From: Euglena gracilis
Lineage: Eukaryota
DNA: 64,000 nucleotides
Assembly (NCBI GenBank): GCA_039621445.1
Contig: CP154954.1
Coordinates: 43,088,632 to 43,152,631 of the forward strand
Direction of reading: 5' to 3'
Each line of letters begins with the position of its first letter. Position 1 is the stretch's first letter. Positions 18,001 to 58,257 of the stretch are shown one piece after another. The notes under the pieces are model-generated. The model was not told the DNA's origin. It saw only the letters and a program-made list of their open reading frames with translations, and did not search any database. A program made the translations under genes and the position numbers.

Positions 18001-20560
18001 CAGGGGGAGTCACAGAAGGCCATTAAGGTGTTCCAGAAGGCCATCCACATCATGACTCGCGCTCAGGCCCGGCCTCCTCCCCCCCCCTCCCGGTGGGCCT
18101 CCAGAAGAATGGGCATGTGTATTTGTGCATTGCAGGCATTTGCTTAAGGGATTGCAGTACCCCCGGGGGGGGGGGGGGCTGGACTGCAGCTAGTCCAAAT
18201 TTGGCTAGTGGGATTTCTAGCAGGGCTAGCTAGTGGAAATTTTTTTTCCAGTGACCGGCGCGAAGCGCCAAAAATTTTTTTGGGGACCCCAAAAATGGCC
18301 AATAATACCCATTTTTGGCCTTTTTTGGGAATTTTTGGAACAAAATCAGCCAAAAACCTATTAAAACCCTCATTTCTCCTCCGGCGCTGCACGCCGGAGA
18401 AAATTTTTTTTCCAGTTCGGAGGACCCCCGGACCCCCCCCCCCGGGGAGGGGGGGTCCTAGCTAGTCCATTTTTCCAGTGTCTAGCCGATTGGCTAGCCA
18501 GTACCCCGGGGTCCTTAAGCAAATACCTGGTGCATTGTTATTCTCAAGGCGACAATTTTCAATAAAATAGGTGTTTAAGATATTAGTTTGGCAATGGCGG
18601 TCCAAGGGTCACCCTGCCATCAAACAGGGTCCAAAAAAGTCGAGCCCCCCCCCCCCTTTTTGAATTTTGGTGGATAGACAATGTTCCGGCGATGGCAGGA
18701 ATCATTTTTCCCGGGGTTTTTTTTTGCCGAGACTTTGCGATTTTATTTCTGCTTTGATTCGAGAAAAGATTTGCAGAGTGGTTCTTTAAGGTTCTTTAAG
18801 GTTTTTAAGGCATTTTCTCCAAACAAAAATTAAGGTTTTTTTAAAGGTTTTTAACGGTTTTTTTAAAGCGCCTTAAAAAATTCTGCCTGTTGGTGTCGAC
18901 TGGCGTGACCGAGACCGTGGCATCCTGATTTTCCTGGCCGGTGGTATTGGCTGGCTTTCAGGGGAGTGGCATGCTGACCCCCCCCCACCCCCCGGAGAGG
19001 ACAGAGCCACGGTGGCCCCCTCGGGGGCTGGGCCTGTGTGGGACGGGGAGCGGCCGGAGGTGGCACGACTGCACCAGCACATGGCGGTGGTGTACTCCGG
19101 GCTGGGGGAGTACCGCCTCATGGTGGACATGTATGAGACGGCGGTGGAGATGCTGACGAAGCAGCTGGGGGCGTGCCACCCCGGCGGGGGCAGCCCCTCG
19201 CTCCCCTGAGCCCCCCCTCCAAGACACACACATGCACGCACGCATGCACGCACACAACACACACGACACAACACAACACAACACGCACGCACGCACACAG
19301 ACACACACACACACACACACGTGTGTGTGTGTGTGTGTGTGTGTAGACATACACACACACACACACGTGTGTGTGTGTGTGTGTGCGTGTGTGTGTGTGC
19401 GTGTGTGTGTGTGTGTGTGTGTGAACGTGTGTGTGTGAACGTGTGTGTGTGTTTGTGCATGCGCATTCACACAAAATGACTCGCAGTGGTTACCTCCCCA
19501 AAGGAGGGTAGCCTCTATTTTTAGCTTGAAGTAAAAAAATATTGGACCCAAAAATTGACCCCCAAGTGTTGTTCCCCCCCCAAGCCCCTAAAAAGTCCCC
19601 CGTGGGGTGGGTGGGTACCAACCGCCCCCCCCCCCGGGGCCTAAAAAAAATCTGGTTGGCGCCGCCCCCCGGCCCCGAGGTGCGGCGGGTGCAGGAGGAG
19701 CTGTACAAGGCCCAGCACGAGGTGATGGCCGCCATCCACCTCGACGGGCAGCAGTGGTGCGCAGGGAGGGCCGGCGACCCCCGGCCCCCGCCTGGCCACC
19801 CCACGGGGCGACGGGGCGGTGGGCGATGGGGTGTGGCGGTGTCCGGGGTGGCCGGTGGCCGGTGGTCAAGGGGCCCGCCTCATTTCCACCAGGTGGACGT
19901 TGAGCCGGGATGGGAGGCCAACCACCCCACCCCTGAACCCAAAGCCCAAATTGCAGCCACTCCCGAAAGAGCCAGTAAACAACGGACAAAGCAAAAGCAA
20001 GCGAATGAACAAACAAGAGGGGCATTTGGCTTTCTTTCAGCAAACGCTGCAATGCTGGGATTCTCAAAATGTGTTTTCTTTTTAATTTGAATGCGGAGGA
20101 AGTTCGTCTGCTCAATTTTTTAAGCCGCTCCTGTGCGCATCCGTAAAACCAAACTTCAGCCACCCCTTTGCAAATAGCTCAACAGCTCCAACGATTTGGT
20201 TGCCAGCCAAATGCATTCAGCTTCGCGCAAGGGGTATTGCCAAATTTTTGTAATCTCAAATAGACACATTCTCTTTCGCATTTTCTCCAAAGCTGCTTTC
20301 TCTGAGCGCCTGCCCTCTCCAATGGCTTCTCTTCAGCCGTTGCATGTTCTTCAGCCGCCGCCGCAGCTGCCTTCTCTTCGGTGTGAACATGTTCTTCGGT
20401 GTGGCGCATTGGGGGCCGGGGGTTCCACCCGACAATTGGCGCCGCTTTGAGGGATGGCGAGCGAACCAGCGCCGGGCCCCGGCCGCCTCCGGAGCCCCTG
20501 CCAGGCCCGCCGGCCCCAACGACATTGCCGGCCCTTCCCTGGCCGCGCTCCATCCAGTGA
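93..20560 (+). CDS. Gene A (5' part outside window): multi-exon ART-like domain + TPR repeat protein ending in CaaX (CSIQ)
   Basis: Exons by hand: 93-189, 311-377, 780-837, ~1540-1635, 2315-~2377, ~3158-3245, ~3362-3535, 4050-4139, 13243-13324, 13603-13725, 14271-14467, 14984-15115, ~15849-15918, ~16368-16448, 17510-~17655, ~17985-18060, 19042-~19180, ~19675-19758, 20547-20560. They are colinear and homologous with gene B exons, e.g. [26 protein letters not shown] vs DAIDMYRKVIRMQVEEWGANSLVVGE. TPR-like units include [48 protein letters not shown]. Most junctions join in frame using the N3CAG/CTGN5 rule. Confidence 0.85.
190..310 (+). other. Nonconventional intron (gene A-specific position)
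   Basis: ggcCGG...CTGggcgc|g; removal gives in-frame DDEALFAEA, matching GEEAVFGEA of gene B. Confidence 0.75.
455..646. repeat. Imperfect (CA)n microsatellite, representative of many
   Basis: Similar CA/TG tracts at ~13800-14150, 19225-19460, 23700-23830, 31230-31480, 32590-32785, 33310-33400, 37270-37560, 38720-39000, 51000-51150 and 51900-52005; (CACT)n at ~32100-32292 and 49600-49697. Confidence 0.95.
7545..8420. repeat. AT-rich low-complexity tract interrupted by a foldback element (~7835-8220)
   Basis: AT-rich hexamer-like decay on both sides; ccccccaaatataaagc and its inverse gctttatatttgggggg repeated inside. Confidence 0.65.
8453..8823. mobile_element. TA-flanked MITE (Tc1/mariner-like ends), family 1
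   Basis: ta-cccccc ctatgtccaacgacc ... ggtcattcgacatag gggggg-ta; related copies at 27803-28226 and ~42928-43521. Confidence 0.75.
12060..12365. repeat. Degenerate telomere-like (CCCTAA/TTAGGG) units
   Basis: Spaced aaccct(a/g) units at ~18-nt period (12066-12150), ttagggttag at ~12255 and cctaaccctaacc at ~12350. Confidence 0.45.
15717..15843. mobile_element. Short copy of the 52989 MITE family next to a gene A exon
   Basis: Perfect 18-nt TIR cagggttcgatataagga / tccttatatcgaaccctg; gagcagcc occurs on both sides (15709-15716, 15850-15857). Confidence 0.85.
18133..18529. mobile_element. hAT-like MITE nested in an intron
   Basis: TIR caggcatttgcttaagg / ccttaagcaaatacctg (16 of 17 complementary); perfect 8-bp TSD gtgcattg at 18125-18132 and 18530-18537. 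Confidence 0.9.
19759..20546 (+). other. Nonconventional intron splitting the CaaX cysteine codon of gene A
   Basis: gcgCAGGGAGGGCCGGC pairs with GCCGGCCCTTCCCTG-gccgc. Splicing gives TGG T|GC TCC ATC CAG TGA (W-C-S-I-Q-stop). Gene B has no intron here. Confidence 0.85.
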
Positions 20561-56440: not shown

Positions 56441-58257
56441 CCTCCAGTTTGACGTCCAAAGAAACACTGTCATTCTTGCACCCCATCCTTGAAATTATCC
56501 CACCAGGTAGGTATTGCCTTGGCTCGGACTTGATGATTCTTCATGATGTCTCCTGGGGTTGTGCTCGCAGGCGGCAACTCCCCCCGCTGGACGGATGTCC
56601 CCGAAACCCATGGGTGGAGTCCTGCCTGGGGTAAGTAACGTTCTCTATCCAGCATTGTTGAGAGGTTGTTGGATTTCCACCTCCAAATTTCATTTCATTT
56701 CAGCAGCAAAATTTCAACCCAGCTGGATGTGGATTTTTTTACCCGCTTTCGGGTACCAGCAGGCTGCTGGACCTGCCTCCCTCCCCCTGGACCCCACCCC
56801 TGGGGGGGGGGGGGGGTCCAGCCAACGCCTTTTTTCCCAACCAGCACGTTTTTCCAGCAGTCCCACAGGACCCCCCAGGGGTTTTTAAGAAAACCACTGA
56901 CATGGATGGGAATGGGGGTTTGGGTTGCTGGGGACAGTTCTATGTTATGCTTTGGTTTGCCATTCTCAGGACTTGAATTAATTCGAGTGGGGATCCCGCC
57001 GTAAACCCGCCCTGAACAGAAGCCCTCGGGGCTTCTATTCAGACCGTTTGGTCGAAAACCGAGGAGGGGGCCTCTATTCGGACCAATGGTCAAAATCCGA
57101 GATGGGGATTCTATTCGGGGGGGGGGGTTACCGCCCAAAGCGCCACCGCCTCAGACGCTCATTGGGAAGCAGCAGAAAAGGTTTGCGGCGTCCCCACGAG
57201 GAGAGTTCCATATCCCTCGTGGCACATATGGGGTGTTCCCAACCCTCCTCCTGGCTGACCCCTGTGTACCTCTCTTTTGAGGGTCCACATCACCTATTCA
57301 CCTGCTCTGGATTCTGTTGGCATCCTGCCTTATATGTTGAACACGGTTTATTCTTTTGCGAACCCAAAAAAAATACCATTGGCATGCATTGAGCTTCGCA
57401 ATGCGCAATACGTCGCAAGAGTTTTTGCACCCTCATCCCAGTGGGTTATTACGGGCAAGCACCTCGGCAAGCACCTGAGCGATGCTGGGCGATGTTGGGC
57501 GATGCTGGATTTTTGGAGACCAGAGGTGGTGTCCCATGCTGGGCGATGGGCGATGCTGGGATTTCTTGTATATTTTGAAGAATTGAAAAGGTTAGAACAA
57601 ATAAGCAATCATTAACCACAATTCTCTTCTATCAAACCCATTGTTGCCATTTTGGAGTAATTATTTTCTAATTTGTGGACCATTTTGTGATGATTTGGGT
57701 AAACATTGGGTATGGCATTTTTGGCCGTTTCATGCTTTGGTGGTTTTGGGTCGTCAGTCATTTTGGCCGCGTTTCGGGGCCTTTTGTGGTAGTTTTGGGG
57801 CTTCTGTGGTCATTTTGGCCTGGATACTGGAAAAGATGGAGCGGGTGTCCCTTCGTGGTGCCTTTTTTCGCCGGGTTCAGCTGACTGGTAATTGCCCCTT
57901 CGAAACCCAGAAGAAAGGACAGAAAATGCGTCAGAAGAGGTTTCAAGCAAATAATTAACCACCAAATCGATATCCAGAAAGACGCGTGCCAGAAGAACAT
58001 AAATTGACAATTCAATCATAAAAATTCAATTTTTTAATTTCAATGAAAAATGAAGATTCAAAGAAATTGGATTCATGCCGCCGGCGCGGAGGGGCAGCAA
58101 TGGCTGCAGAAACTGTAAAAATTGAACGTGCGGACAAACCCTGACGAACCATTGCCGCCCCCCCAAAATTCCCAGAGAAAAATCCACCCAGTGACGGCAA
58201 CGGCCCTTTGGCCCTTGCGGCTCGAAAGCCAAGGCATTCAAAGTCAAAAAGGGACCA

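What the first reader, a model, noticed from the sequence alone, without database searches (positions are those of the whole stretch)
18125..56448. Free CAG...CTG MITEs with 8-bp TSDs have the same geometry as the introns
Seen: elements outside exons (18133-18529, TSD 8/8; 52989-53372, 7/8; 55536-56440, 7/8; 31786-31981, 6/8) all begin CAGG and end CCTG. Several share an internal gtccagccagc motif that is also found inside the intron at 42243-42630. They show that the element class is mobile independent of exons. Inference: copies nested in introns carry complete splice signals and might be excised first (nested or stepwise splicing).
Basis: partly seen in the sequence, partly recalled or inferred. 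Interest (0 to 1): 0.7.

Follow-up and report, generated by a model that had tools for sequence, protein, structure and literature searches.

The report
Euglena transposons that become odd introns
This Euglena DNA holds small cut-and-paste transposons, lying between genes and inside introns, that have the same ends and 8-base footprint as the organism's unusual non-GT-AG introns, which supports the published idea that those introns began as transposon insertions.

Summary
The observation largely holds. The window is Euglena gracilis nuclear DNA, or a very close relative. It carries two tandem paralogous ankyrin/TPR genes, A (before base 1 to 20560) and B (30913-51283). I mapped 42 introns with transcript-derived proteins. 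None needs GT-AG, and 20 fit the published nonconventional (NC) code: CAG at +4 to +6 and CTG at -8 to -6.

Three of the four named elements are solid MITEs with CAGG...CCTG inverted ends and 8-bp target-site duplications (TSDs): 18133-18529, 52989-53372 and 55536-56440. A strict scan finds 4 such elements against about 0 in shuffles, and only a flank length of 8 is enriched. The fourth, 31786-31981, is not above chance.

None interrupts an exon. Two lie downstream of gene B, and one is nested in an NC intron of gene A. Their ends align with those of exon-interrupting introns. Two introns with perfect flanking repeats are absent from the paralog, so they are post-duplication gains.

The published 3-nt and 5-nt spacers sum to the 8-bp TSD. 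Splicing therefore removes the element plus one TSD copy.

MITE origin is a published hypothesis. The non-exonic copies and the 3+5=8 link appeared in none of the papers I searched. Nested splicing could not be tested because no RNA reads could be laid.

The parts
18133..18529 (+). MITE nested in an NC intron of gene A. TIR CAGGCATTTGCTTAAGG is 16/17; TSD GTGCATTG is 8/8 (18125-18132 and 18530-18537).
   Evidence: host intron
52989..53372 (+). Intergenic MITE 1.7 kb downstream of gene B's stop codon. TSD CTTTTGCC/CTTTTACC is 7/8. Its ends are 80-83% identical to the mini-copy 15717-15844.
55536..56440 (+). Intergenic MITE. The TIR is perfect over its first 12 nt (CAGGGCGTCGCT). TSD CCTCCAAT/CCTCCAGT is 7/8. 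It carries the GTCCAGCCAGC subterminal motif.
31786..31981 (+). Weak candidate inside gene B intron 31726-32413. TSD is 6/8, the TIR is poor, and it has no relatives in the window. It is not above chance.
21939..23410 (+). Intergenic copy of the 55536 family, 1.4 kb past gene A's stop. Its 5' end is mutated to CAAGG. TSD TTCCTGGA/TTCCTGGT is 7/8.
43951..44905 (+). Exon-interrupting NC intron element of gene B. TSD GATGGGCC is 8/8. It is absent from paralog A.
42246..42626 (+). The perfect flanking repeat CGCTGAT is 7 nt (8 nt if the element's last G is counted). Its TIR is related to that of 18133. It is absent from paralog A.
13729..14265 (+). Exon-interrupting NC intron element of gene A. 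Its 5' end CAGGGCGTCGCC plus a CCAGCCAGCC motif matches the 55536/21939 family. TSD is 6/8.
15114..15874 (+). Non-slidable NC intron of gene A (CAC...GTG variant, exact 3+5 spacing). It holds two nested MITE-like elements, 15187-15684 and 15717-15844.
18061..19041 (+). Host NC intron of gene A (GCT|CAG...CTG|TGTGG, 3+5 spacing) that contains the MITE 18133-18529.
48974..49439 (+). Gene B intron at the paralogous position. It holds a 5'-truncated relative of 18133 at 49003-49228 (82.7% identity over 226 nt).
9329..9714 (+). 5'-truncated copy of the 55536/21939 family inside gene A's 9.1-kb intron.
80..20560 (+). Gene A (ankyrin/TPR), matching EG_transcript_3304 from residue 200 to the stop codon. 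Eighteen introns were mapped.
30913..51283 (+). Gene B, the tandem paralog, matching EG_transcript_1598. Twenty-four introns were mapped.

Best explanation
The window is Euglena gracilis nuclear DNA or a very close relative. The flagged elements are non-autonomous cut-and-paste DNA transposons (MITEs). They have CAGG...CCTG terminal inverted repeats and make an 8-bp target-site duplication, a signature like that of hAT elements. They sit in non-coding DNA, either intergenic or nested in introns.

They belong to the same group of elements that, when inserted in an exon, act as nonconventional introns. The NC splicing system cuts 3 nt upstream of the CAG and 5 nt downstream of the CTG. It therefore removes the element plus 8 nt, which is exactly the element plus one TSD copy, and the mRNA returns to its pre-insertion sequence.

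Shown: the ends and TSDs; the enrichment at length 8 only; removal of element plus 8 nt, at protein level; paralog-specific introns with perfect flanking repeats; end similarity between free and intronic copies.

Inferred: which transposase moves them, whether they still move, and whether non-exonic copies are excised from RNA.
For: Organism. Exons are 100% and 96% identical to proteins that their source names EG_transcript_3304 and EG_transcript_1598. This naming style is that of the E. gracilis transcriptome paper (PMC6366073, passage).

Introns. Of 42 mapped introns, 0 can be GT-AG and 1 has a GC-AG option. Twenty fit CAG(+4..6)/CTG(-8..-6). Seven more fit CA/TG, and 8 fit another complementary triplet at the same spacing. 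Two of the 3 introns with a single possible junction are exact 3+5. Of the 24 introns with a CAG/CTG pair near their ends, 19 have intron length minus element length equal to 8. This matches the published code (PMC12501133, passages).

Transposon signature. Mean TSD identity for the four named elements is 0.88 at length 8 and at most 0.35 at every other length from 4 to 12.

Intron gain. Introns 43951-44905 (TSD 8/8) and 42246-42626 (7/7) lie where paralog A has uninterrupted exon.

Shared family. The alignment of 13 element ends gives the common pattern CAGGnnnT(T/C)GCT..AAG..CCCC-G run-GTCCAGCCAGC across free, nested and exon-interrupting elements.

End pairing. Free elements pair at -17 to -38 kcal/mol, within the range of the introns (-16 to -43). 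Non-cognate ends average -22.

hAT likeness. hAT elements have 8-bp TSDs and short TIRs, and the hAT MITE Mar has the TIR CAG(G/A)GGTAGGC (PMC3517528, passages).
Against: - No RNA reads were laid, so junctions are known only at protein level. Nine of the 41 junction solutions carry 1-3 residue mismatches.
- TSDs of most introns are decayed. Mean identity is 0.47 at length 8, and 110 of 5000 permutations reach the observed value. The 8-bp TSD case therefore rests on a handful of young copies.
- One precisely spliced intron has a total spacer of 7, three have 9 and one has 10.
- No transposase is in the window. Among the 139 ORFs scanned (of 158 of at least 90 aa), the only family found was reverse transcriptase.
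- Copy number beyond the window is unknown, because no genome is held.
- Merlin transposons with 8-bp TSDs are reported in E. gracilis (PMC8101967, passages) and are an alternative partner. However, Merlin ends start with GG, not CAGG.
Confidence: 0.8

Rival explanations
1. The 'free' copies 52989-53372, 55536-56440 and 21939-23410 are not free. They are NC introns of unannotated transcripts, such as a long 3' UTR, read-through RNA or non-coding RNA, and are spliced like the others. They would still be MITE-derived, but would not show life outside transcripts.
For: Eight of 8 independent elements carrying the GTCCAGCCAGC module lie in the same orientation as genes A and B, including the intergenic ones. 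This could reflect selection in sense transcripts. Three of the four named elements expose a purine at the would-be acceptor.
Against: There is no exon-like codon signal between 51284 and 58500 and no Pfam hit there. The flanks are AT-rich and low in complexity. 21939-23410 has CAA in place of CAG, a position where a substitution abolished splicing in the published knock-ins (PMC12501133, passages).
Confidence: 0.12
2. The elements spread through RNA. Excised circular NC-intron RNA would be reinserted by reverse splicing and reverse transcription. The 8-nt flanks would then be the 3+5 nt carried along with the excised RNA, not a transposase footprint.
For: NC introns are reported to leave as full-length circles (review PMC11282704, passages). 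The excised unit does contain 3+5 flanking nucleotides.
Against: Carried-over flanks would not produce a direct duplication of the new target. Here each copy has its own 8-mer repeated on both sides: GTGCATTG, CTTTTGCC, CCTCCAAT, GATGGGCC. That is the footprint of a staggered DNA cut.
Confidence: 0.04
3. The pattern is chance: inverted repeats and short flank matches in G/C-run-rich, repeat-rich DNA.
For: 31786-31981 meets only loose criteria, which shuffles meet 1.3 times per window. The window is full of poly-G/C tracts and microsatellites.
Against: The strict scan gives 4 hits against 0 in 30 shuffles. Only length 8 is enriched. Of 14 head triplets tried at flank length 8, CAG gave 4 hits. 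Ten gave 0 and GAC, CAC and CAA gave 1 each. GTG gave 17, which I attribute to the CA/GT microsatellites. Three of the four named elements have sequence relatives elsewhere in the window.
Confidence: 0.02

Closest known systems
Nonconventional introns of euglenids and their splicing code (PMC12501133; Milanowski et al., PMC3935182)
   Same: [quoted passage not shown] All of these are seen in this window's introns. MITE origin is proposed in these papers.
   Different: In the passages I read, these papers argue from inverted repeats and 'TSD-like' direct repeats at intron borders. Milanowski et al. state that no transposable elements had then been identified in euglenids. I saw no report of non-exonic copies with intact 8-bp TSDs, and none linking 3+5 to the TSD length. 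'Duplication' occurs 0 times in PMC12501133. Literature searches.
Introner elements of Micromonas, Aureococcus and dinoflagellates (named in review PMC11282704 and in search listings)
   Same: Non-autonomous DNA transposons with TIRs and TSDs that become introns on insertion. The TSD is part of what makes removal exact.
   Different: Those are removed by the spliceosome at GT-AG sites partly built from the TSD. Here 0 of 42 introns can be GT-AG, and removal follows a fixed 3+5 ruler around a CAG/CTG stem.
Amoebophrya introner elements (PMC7789003)
   Same: Non-canonical introns with inverted repeats plus direct repeats at their borders, and a MITE-like interpretation.
   Different: Their direct repeats are 3-5 nt and variable, with no family-specific repeat motif (passages). 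Here the repeat is 8 nt and the ends are CAGG...CCTG. The organism here is a euglenid, not a dinoflagellate.
hAT superfamily MITEs, e.g. Mar of Drosophila (PMC3517528)
   Same: 8-bp TSD, short TIRs, and a TIR beginning CAGG.
   Different: No hAT transposase or autonomous copy was found here. The TSD consensus cannot be judged from 5-6 copies. The splicing of maize Ds, a hAT element, from pre-mRNA is recalled from memory; I read no paper on it, only a reference-list title in PMC3935182.

Membership tests
Euglenid nonconventional intron (published splicing code) | CAG (or CD'G) at +4..6 and a complementary CTG at -8..-6, with 3-nt and 5-6-nt spacers | tested here: met
   Met by the window's introns: 20 of 42 fit exact CAG/CTG 3+5, and 15 more fit a complementary variant. 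The free elements have the CAG...CTG ends, but 'spacers' mean nothing without exons.
Euglenid nonconventional intron (published splicing code) | Purine as the first nucleotide of the acceptor-side exon | tested here: inconclusive
   19 of 19 CAG/CTG introns have a purine. Of the four named free elements, 3 have a purine and 18133-18529 has T.
Euglenid nonconventional intron (published splicing code) | Actual removal from RNA (as a circle) | not testable with these tools
   For the introns, removal is shown at protein level by P0001 and P0003. For the free and nested elements no RNA evidence could be obtained.
MITE (non-autonomous TIR DNA transposon) | Terminal inverted repeats | tested here: met
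   15-16 of the first 20 nt match ungapped in the three solid elements. Cognate ends pair better than non-cognate ends.
MITE (non-autonomous TIR DNA transposon) | Target-site duplication of fixed length | tested here: met
   TSDs of 8/8, 7/8 and 7/8, plus 7/8 for 21939-23410 and 8/8 for 43951-44905. Only length 8 is enriched. One exception has a 7-nt repeat.
MITE (non-autonomous TIR DNA transposon) | No coding capacity; short length | tested here: met
   Lengths are 384-1472 bp. ORFs overlapping them gave no Pfam family.
MITE (non-autonomous TIR DNA transposon) | Many copies and insertion polymorphism | tested here: inconclusive
   Three of the four named elements have relatives within the 64 kb. 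Two intron copies are present in one paralog only. No genome-wide or between-strain count was possible.
hAT superfamily | 8-bp TSD and short TIRs | tested here: met
   The family definition is from PMC3517528 (passages).
hAT superfamily | Autonomous partner encoding a hAT transposase with matching TIRs | not testable with these tools
   None found among 139 window ORFs. No genome is held.
Merlin superfamily (reported in E. gracilis with 8-bp TSDs) | TIRs with terminal 5'-GG | tested here: not met
   The ends here are CAGG...CCTG, and CA/TG cannot be part of a direct repeat. The definition is from PMC8101967 (passages).
Spliceosomal introners | GT-AG (or GC-AG) borders used by the spliceosome | tested here: not met
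   0 of 42 introns allow GT-AG. One allows GC-AG among its 7 sliding options.

The most novel reading that the evidence does not exclude
The 3-nt plus 5-nt ruler of Euglena's nonconventional splicing is matched to the 8-bp footprint of one hAT-like transposon group. The system would then be, in effect, an RNA-level eraser of that group's insertions, possibly built from transposon-derived parts. Every copy, free or nested, would be a portable splice-competent module wherever it is transcribed in sense. That would allow stepwise removal of nested copies and circular MITE RNAs.
Probability: 0.3. Interest if true: 0.85.

Novelty: new member of a known kind. Interest (0 to 1): 0.6.

Why it matters
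The origin of euglenid nonconventional introns, and the reason for their odd 3-nt/5-nt spacing rule, are stated as open in the 2025 splicing-code paper (PMC12501133, passages). Three observations turn a long-standing hypothesis into specific tests:
- non-exonic copies with intact 8-bp TSDs;
- the same ends in introns and free copies;
- paralog-specific introns with perfect flanking repeats.

The tests that follow are to count TSD lengths genome-wide, find the transposase, and knock a free copy with its TSD into a reporter gene. The link also offers a simple reason for the spacing rule: 3+5 equals one TSD, so excision restores the original message.

Tried and rejected
- Whole genome: none is held, so no genome-wide copy count or polymorphism test was possible.
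- Sequencing runs: no RNA holder is listed. Fourteen DNA-type runs hold at least 0.56 of the sampled words. Six 'RNA?' contig runs hold 0.11-0.12.
No RNA or DNA reads were laid, so nested splicing, transcription of the free copies and empty-site alleles stay untested.
- Metagenome scans: the TIR pattern of the 52989 family gave 0 matches. A 20-mer of the GTCCAGCCAGC module gave 6 loci. Three matched the window only over the 21-nt word and three gave no reported match, so all are chance hits.
- Earlier findings of this scan: nothing was returned.
- My first idea, that the window was Amoebophrya-type introners, was dropped. The transcripts name Euglena, and Amoebophrya direct repeats are 3-5 nt.
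- Candidate introns from geometry alone (15897-17567) and my first reading of 15845-15896 as exon were wrong. P0001 shows a single intron 15114-15874 followed by 15916-16367.
- Pfam on 15 long ORFs and on 139 of 158 ORFs of at least 90 aa in non-genic stretches (19 left out for the size limit) found only a reverse transcriptase and no transposase.
- The Merlin supplement: the few aligned E. gracilis end bases that I saw do not end in CCTG. I saw too little to weigh this.
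Full report
**What is there.**

A strict scan asked for CAGG..CCTG, at least 10 of the first 12 nt complementary, and flanks of at least 7/8. It returns four elements: 18133-18529, 52989-53372, 55536-56440 and a fourth, 43951-44905. Thirty first-order Markov shuffles returned none. Under loose criteria there are 7 hits against a shuffle mean of 1.3 (maximum 4). The weak element 31786-31981 passes only these loose criteria, so it cannot be told from chance.

The duplication length is specific. Among 182 CAG..CTG pairs with good inverted ends, flanks agree with at most 1 mismatch four times at length 8 (0.07 expected). 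They never agree at lengths 6, 7 or 9-12. Of 14 head triplets tried at length 8, CAG gave 4, ten gave 0, and GAC, CAC and CAA gave 1 each. GTG gave 17, which I attribute to the CA/GT microsatellites.

**Organism and genes.** An exon at 14273-14470 is 100% identical to an 813-aa protein that its source names EG_transcript_3304. An exon at 48517-48669 is 96% identical to EG_transcript_1598. That naming is used in the E. gracilis transcriptome paper (PMC6366073, passage seen).

Mapping the two proteins on the window shows two tandem paralogs on the + strand. Their proteins are 56.5% identical (454 of 803 aligned residues).
- Gene A runs from before the window to its stop codon at 20560. It includes a 9.1-kb intron.
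- Gene B runs from 30913 to its stop codon at 51283.

**The introns.** For each of 42 junctions I listed every donor/acceptor pair that reproduces the transcript's protein. In one search, 32 of the 41 solutions are exact over about 14 residues on each side, and 9 carry 1-3 mismatches.

No intron can be GT-AG. One has a GC-AG option among its seven sliding positions.
- 20 of 42 fit CAG at +4..6 and CTG at -8..-6.
- 7 fit CA/TG at the same places (for example CAC...GTG).
- 8 fit another complementary triplet at that spacing.
- 7 fit none of these. Four of those seven have CAG/CTG with a total spacer of 7 or 9.

Of the 3 introns with a single possible junction, 2 are exact 3+5. For 19 of the 24 introns with a CAG/CTG pair near their ends, intron length minus element length is 8. 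All 19 expose a purine as the first nucleotide of the acceptor exon.

This is the code published for Euglena NC introns: CAG/CTG, a 3-nt spacer, a 5-6-nt spacer, a purine, and paired ends (PMC12501133, passages).

**Where the 'free' elements lie.**
- 18133-18529 lies inside gene A's NC intron 18061-19041 (GCT|CAG...CTG|TGTGG).
- 31786-31981 lies inside gene B's intron 31726-32413.
- 52989-53372 and 55536-56440 lie 1.7 and 4.3 kb past gene B's stop codon. Exons here have GC3 of 0.93, and that stretch has no exon-like codon signal. Its best 120-nt score is 10.7, against at least 15.4 in 13 known exon windows. It also has no Pfam hit.
- A fifth copy, 21939-23410, lies 1.4 kb past gene A's stop. 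Its 5' end is mutated to CAAGG, and its flanks TTCCTGGA/TTCCTGGT match 7/8.
- Intron 15114-15874 holds two further nested elements, 15187-15684 and 15717-15844.

None of these interrupts an exon.

**Free and intronic copies are related.**
- The ends of 52989-53372 are 80-83% identical to the 128-bp mini-copy 15717-15844.
- 18133-18529 has an 82.7% identical, 5'-truncated relative in gene B's intron at the paralogous position.
- 55536-56440 and 21939-23410 share both ends with each other and with the truncated copy 9329-9714.

An alignment of 13 element ends shows one terminal pattern: CAGGnnnT(T/C)GCT..AAG, then CCCC, a G run, then GTCCAGCCAGC. It is shared by free copies, nested copies and the exon-interrupting introns 42246-42626 and 13729-14265.

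The motif GTCCAGCCAGC occurs 17 times with at most 1 mismatch, against 1.5 expected.

**Evidence for intron gain by insertion.** Intron elements 43951-44905 (flanks GATGGGCC, 8/8) and 42246-42626 (flanks CGCTGAT, 7/7) have perfect flanking repeats. Both lie where paralog A has uninterrupted exon. The transcript protein reads straight across both (AAL|MFQ and LEMG|RMCH).

Twelve intron positions are shared by the paralogs. The TSDs of the older CAG/CTG introns are mostly decayed. Their mean identity is 0.47 at length 8, still the best length, and 110 of 5000 permutations reach the observed value.

**How it most likely works.** A transposase that makes an 8-bp staggered cut inserts these elements anywhere. 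In an exon, the NC splicing system recognises the CAG/CTG stem. It cuts 3 nt before the CAG and 5 nt after the CTG, removing the element plus 8 nt. That equals the element plus one TSD copy, so the message is restored exactly. The two numbers of the published code sum to the TSD length that I measure independently on copies under no splicing constraint.

An 8-bp TSD and short CAGG-type TIRs are hAT hallmarks (PMC3517528, passages). Merlin elements with 8-bp TSDs are reported in E. gracilis, but Merlin ends start with GG (PMC8101967, passages). No transposase lies in the window, so the partner enzyme is inferred.

An RNA route, by reinsertion of excised circles, does not explain why each copy duplicates its own local 8-mer.

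**Nested splicing.** This is untested, because no reads could be laid. On published rules, 18133-18529 is a poor candidate, since its would-be acceptor nucleotide is T. The nested copies 15187-15684 and 15717-15844 would expose G. I found no mention of nested NC introns in PMC6221363; 'nested' and 'twintron' occur 0 times.

**What is known and what may be new.** MITE origin of NC introns has been proposed since 2013. It is repeated in a 2024 review, which notes 'TSD-like' repeats, and in the 2025 code paper (PMC3935182, PMC11282704, PMC12501133; passages). PMC3935182 states that no transposable elements had then been identified in euglenids.

In five searches and the passages I read, I found no report of three things:
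- non-exonic copies with intact 8-bp TSDs;
- ends shared between free copies and introns;
- 3+5 equalling the TSD length.

Subscription papers and the supplements of the 2025 paper were not seen.

**Verdict.** It supplies concrete evidence for, and sharpens, a published hypothesis rather than describing a new kind of system.

Noticed in passing
window 58527-63026 (+): Three long overlapping ORFs of 920, 989 and 578 aa. The middle one has a reverse-transcriptase domain (RVT_1, E=1.5e-22) and a weak Dam-methyltransferase-like stretch (E=0.001, below the Pfam cut-off). This looks like a retroelement, possibly DIRS-like (that label is recalled from memory).
   Followed up: partly
window 9335, 13748, 15238-15616, 21983-23349, 24624, 42291-42556, 55575, 56816: 16 of the 17 GTCCAGCCAGC matches are on the + strand. 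By my grouping, 8 of 8 independent elements with this module point the same way as genes A and B, including intergenic copies. Insertion by inverted ends alone should be orientation-blind. This is unexplained.
   Followed up: partly
window 42236-42633: This precisely spliced intron has a total spacer of 7 nt (3+4 or 2+5), not 8, and its flanking repeat is 7 nt. Three other introns (15916-16367, 38094-39581, 41230-42140) have a total of 9, and one (835-1537) has 10.
   Followed up: partly
window 4140-13242: A 9.1-kb nonconventional intron (GCC|CAC...GTG|GCGGG) in gene A. It is filled with repeats and a truncated MITE.
   Followed up: no
genes A and B, window 80-51283: 0 of 42 introns can be GT-AG. 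The 2019 draft-genome paper reported about 80% conventional introns in E. gracilis (PMC6366073, passage).
   Followed up: no
window 8453-8783, 27803-28137, 18255-18329, 53077-53253: Otherwise different elements, including 18133-18529 and 52989-53372, share an internal module. It consists of a palindrome around CCGGCGCTTCGCGCCGG followed by 'aaaatttttggccaaaatg'-type sequence. This suggests composite or recombinant MITEs.
   Followed up: partly
window 25301-25573 (-): Strong exon-like codon score (25-34) on the minus strand, inside a tandem repeat (25210-25585) between genes A and B. It may be a repeat-rich gene or an artefact of the repeat.
   Followed up: no
window 13800-14150, 19230-19460, 49600-49700, 50990-51150, 51890-52005: Long CA/GT and CACT microsatellites sit inside introns and in the 3' flank. 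One of them blocked read laying at 38724-38828.
   Followed up: no
protein P0002 (matches window about 14200-14790): A 196-aa protein predicted from a public assembly contig reads straight through two introns of gene A. It comes from unspliced RNA or from DNA and gives no splicing evidence.
   Followed up: no
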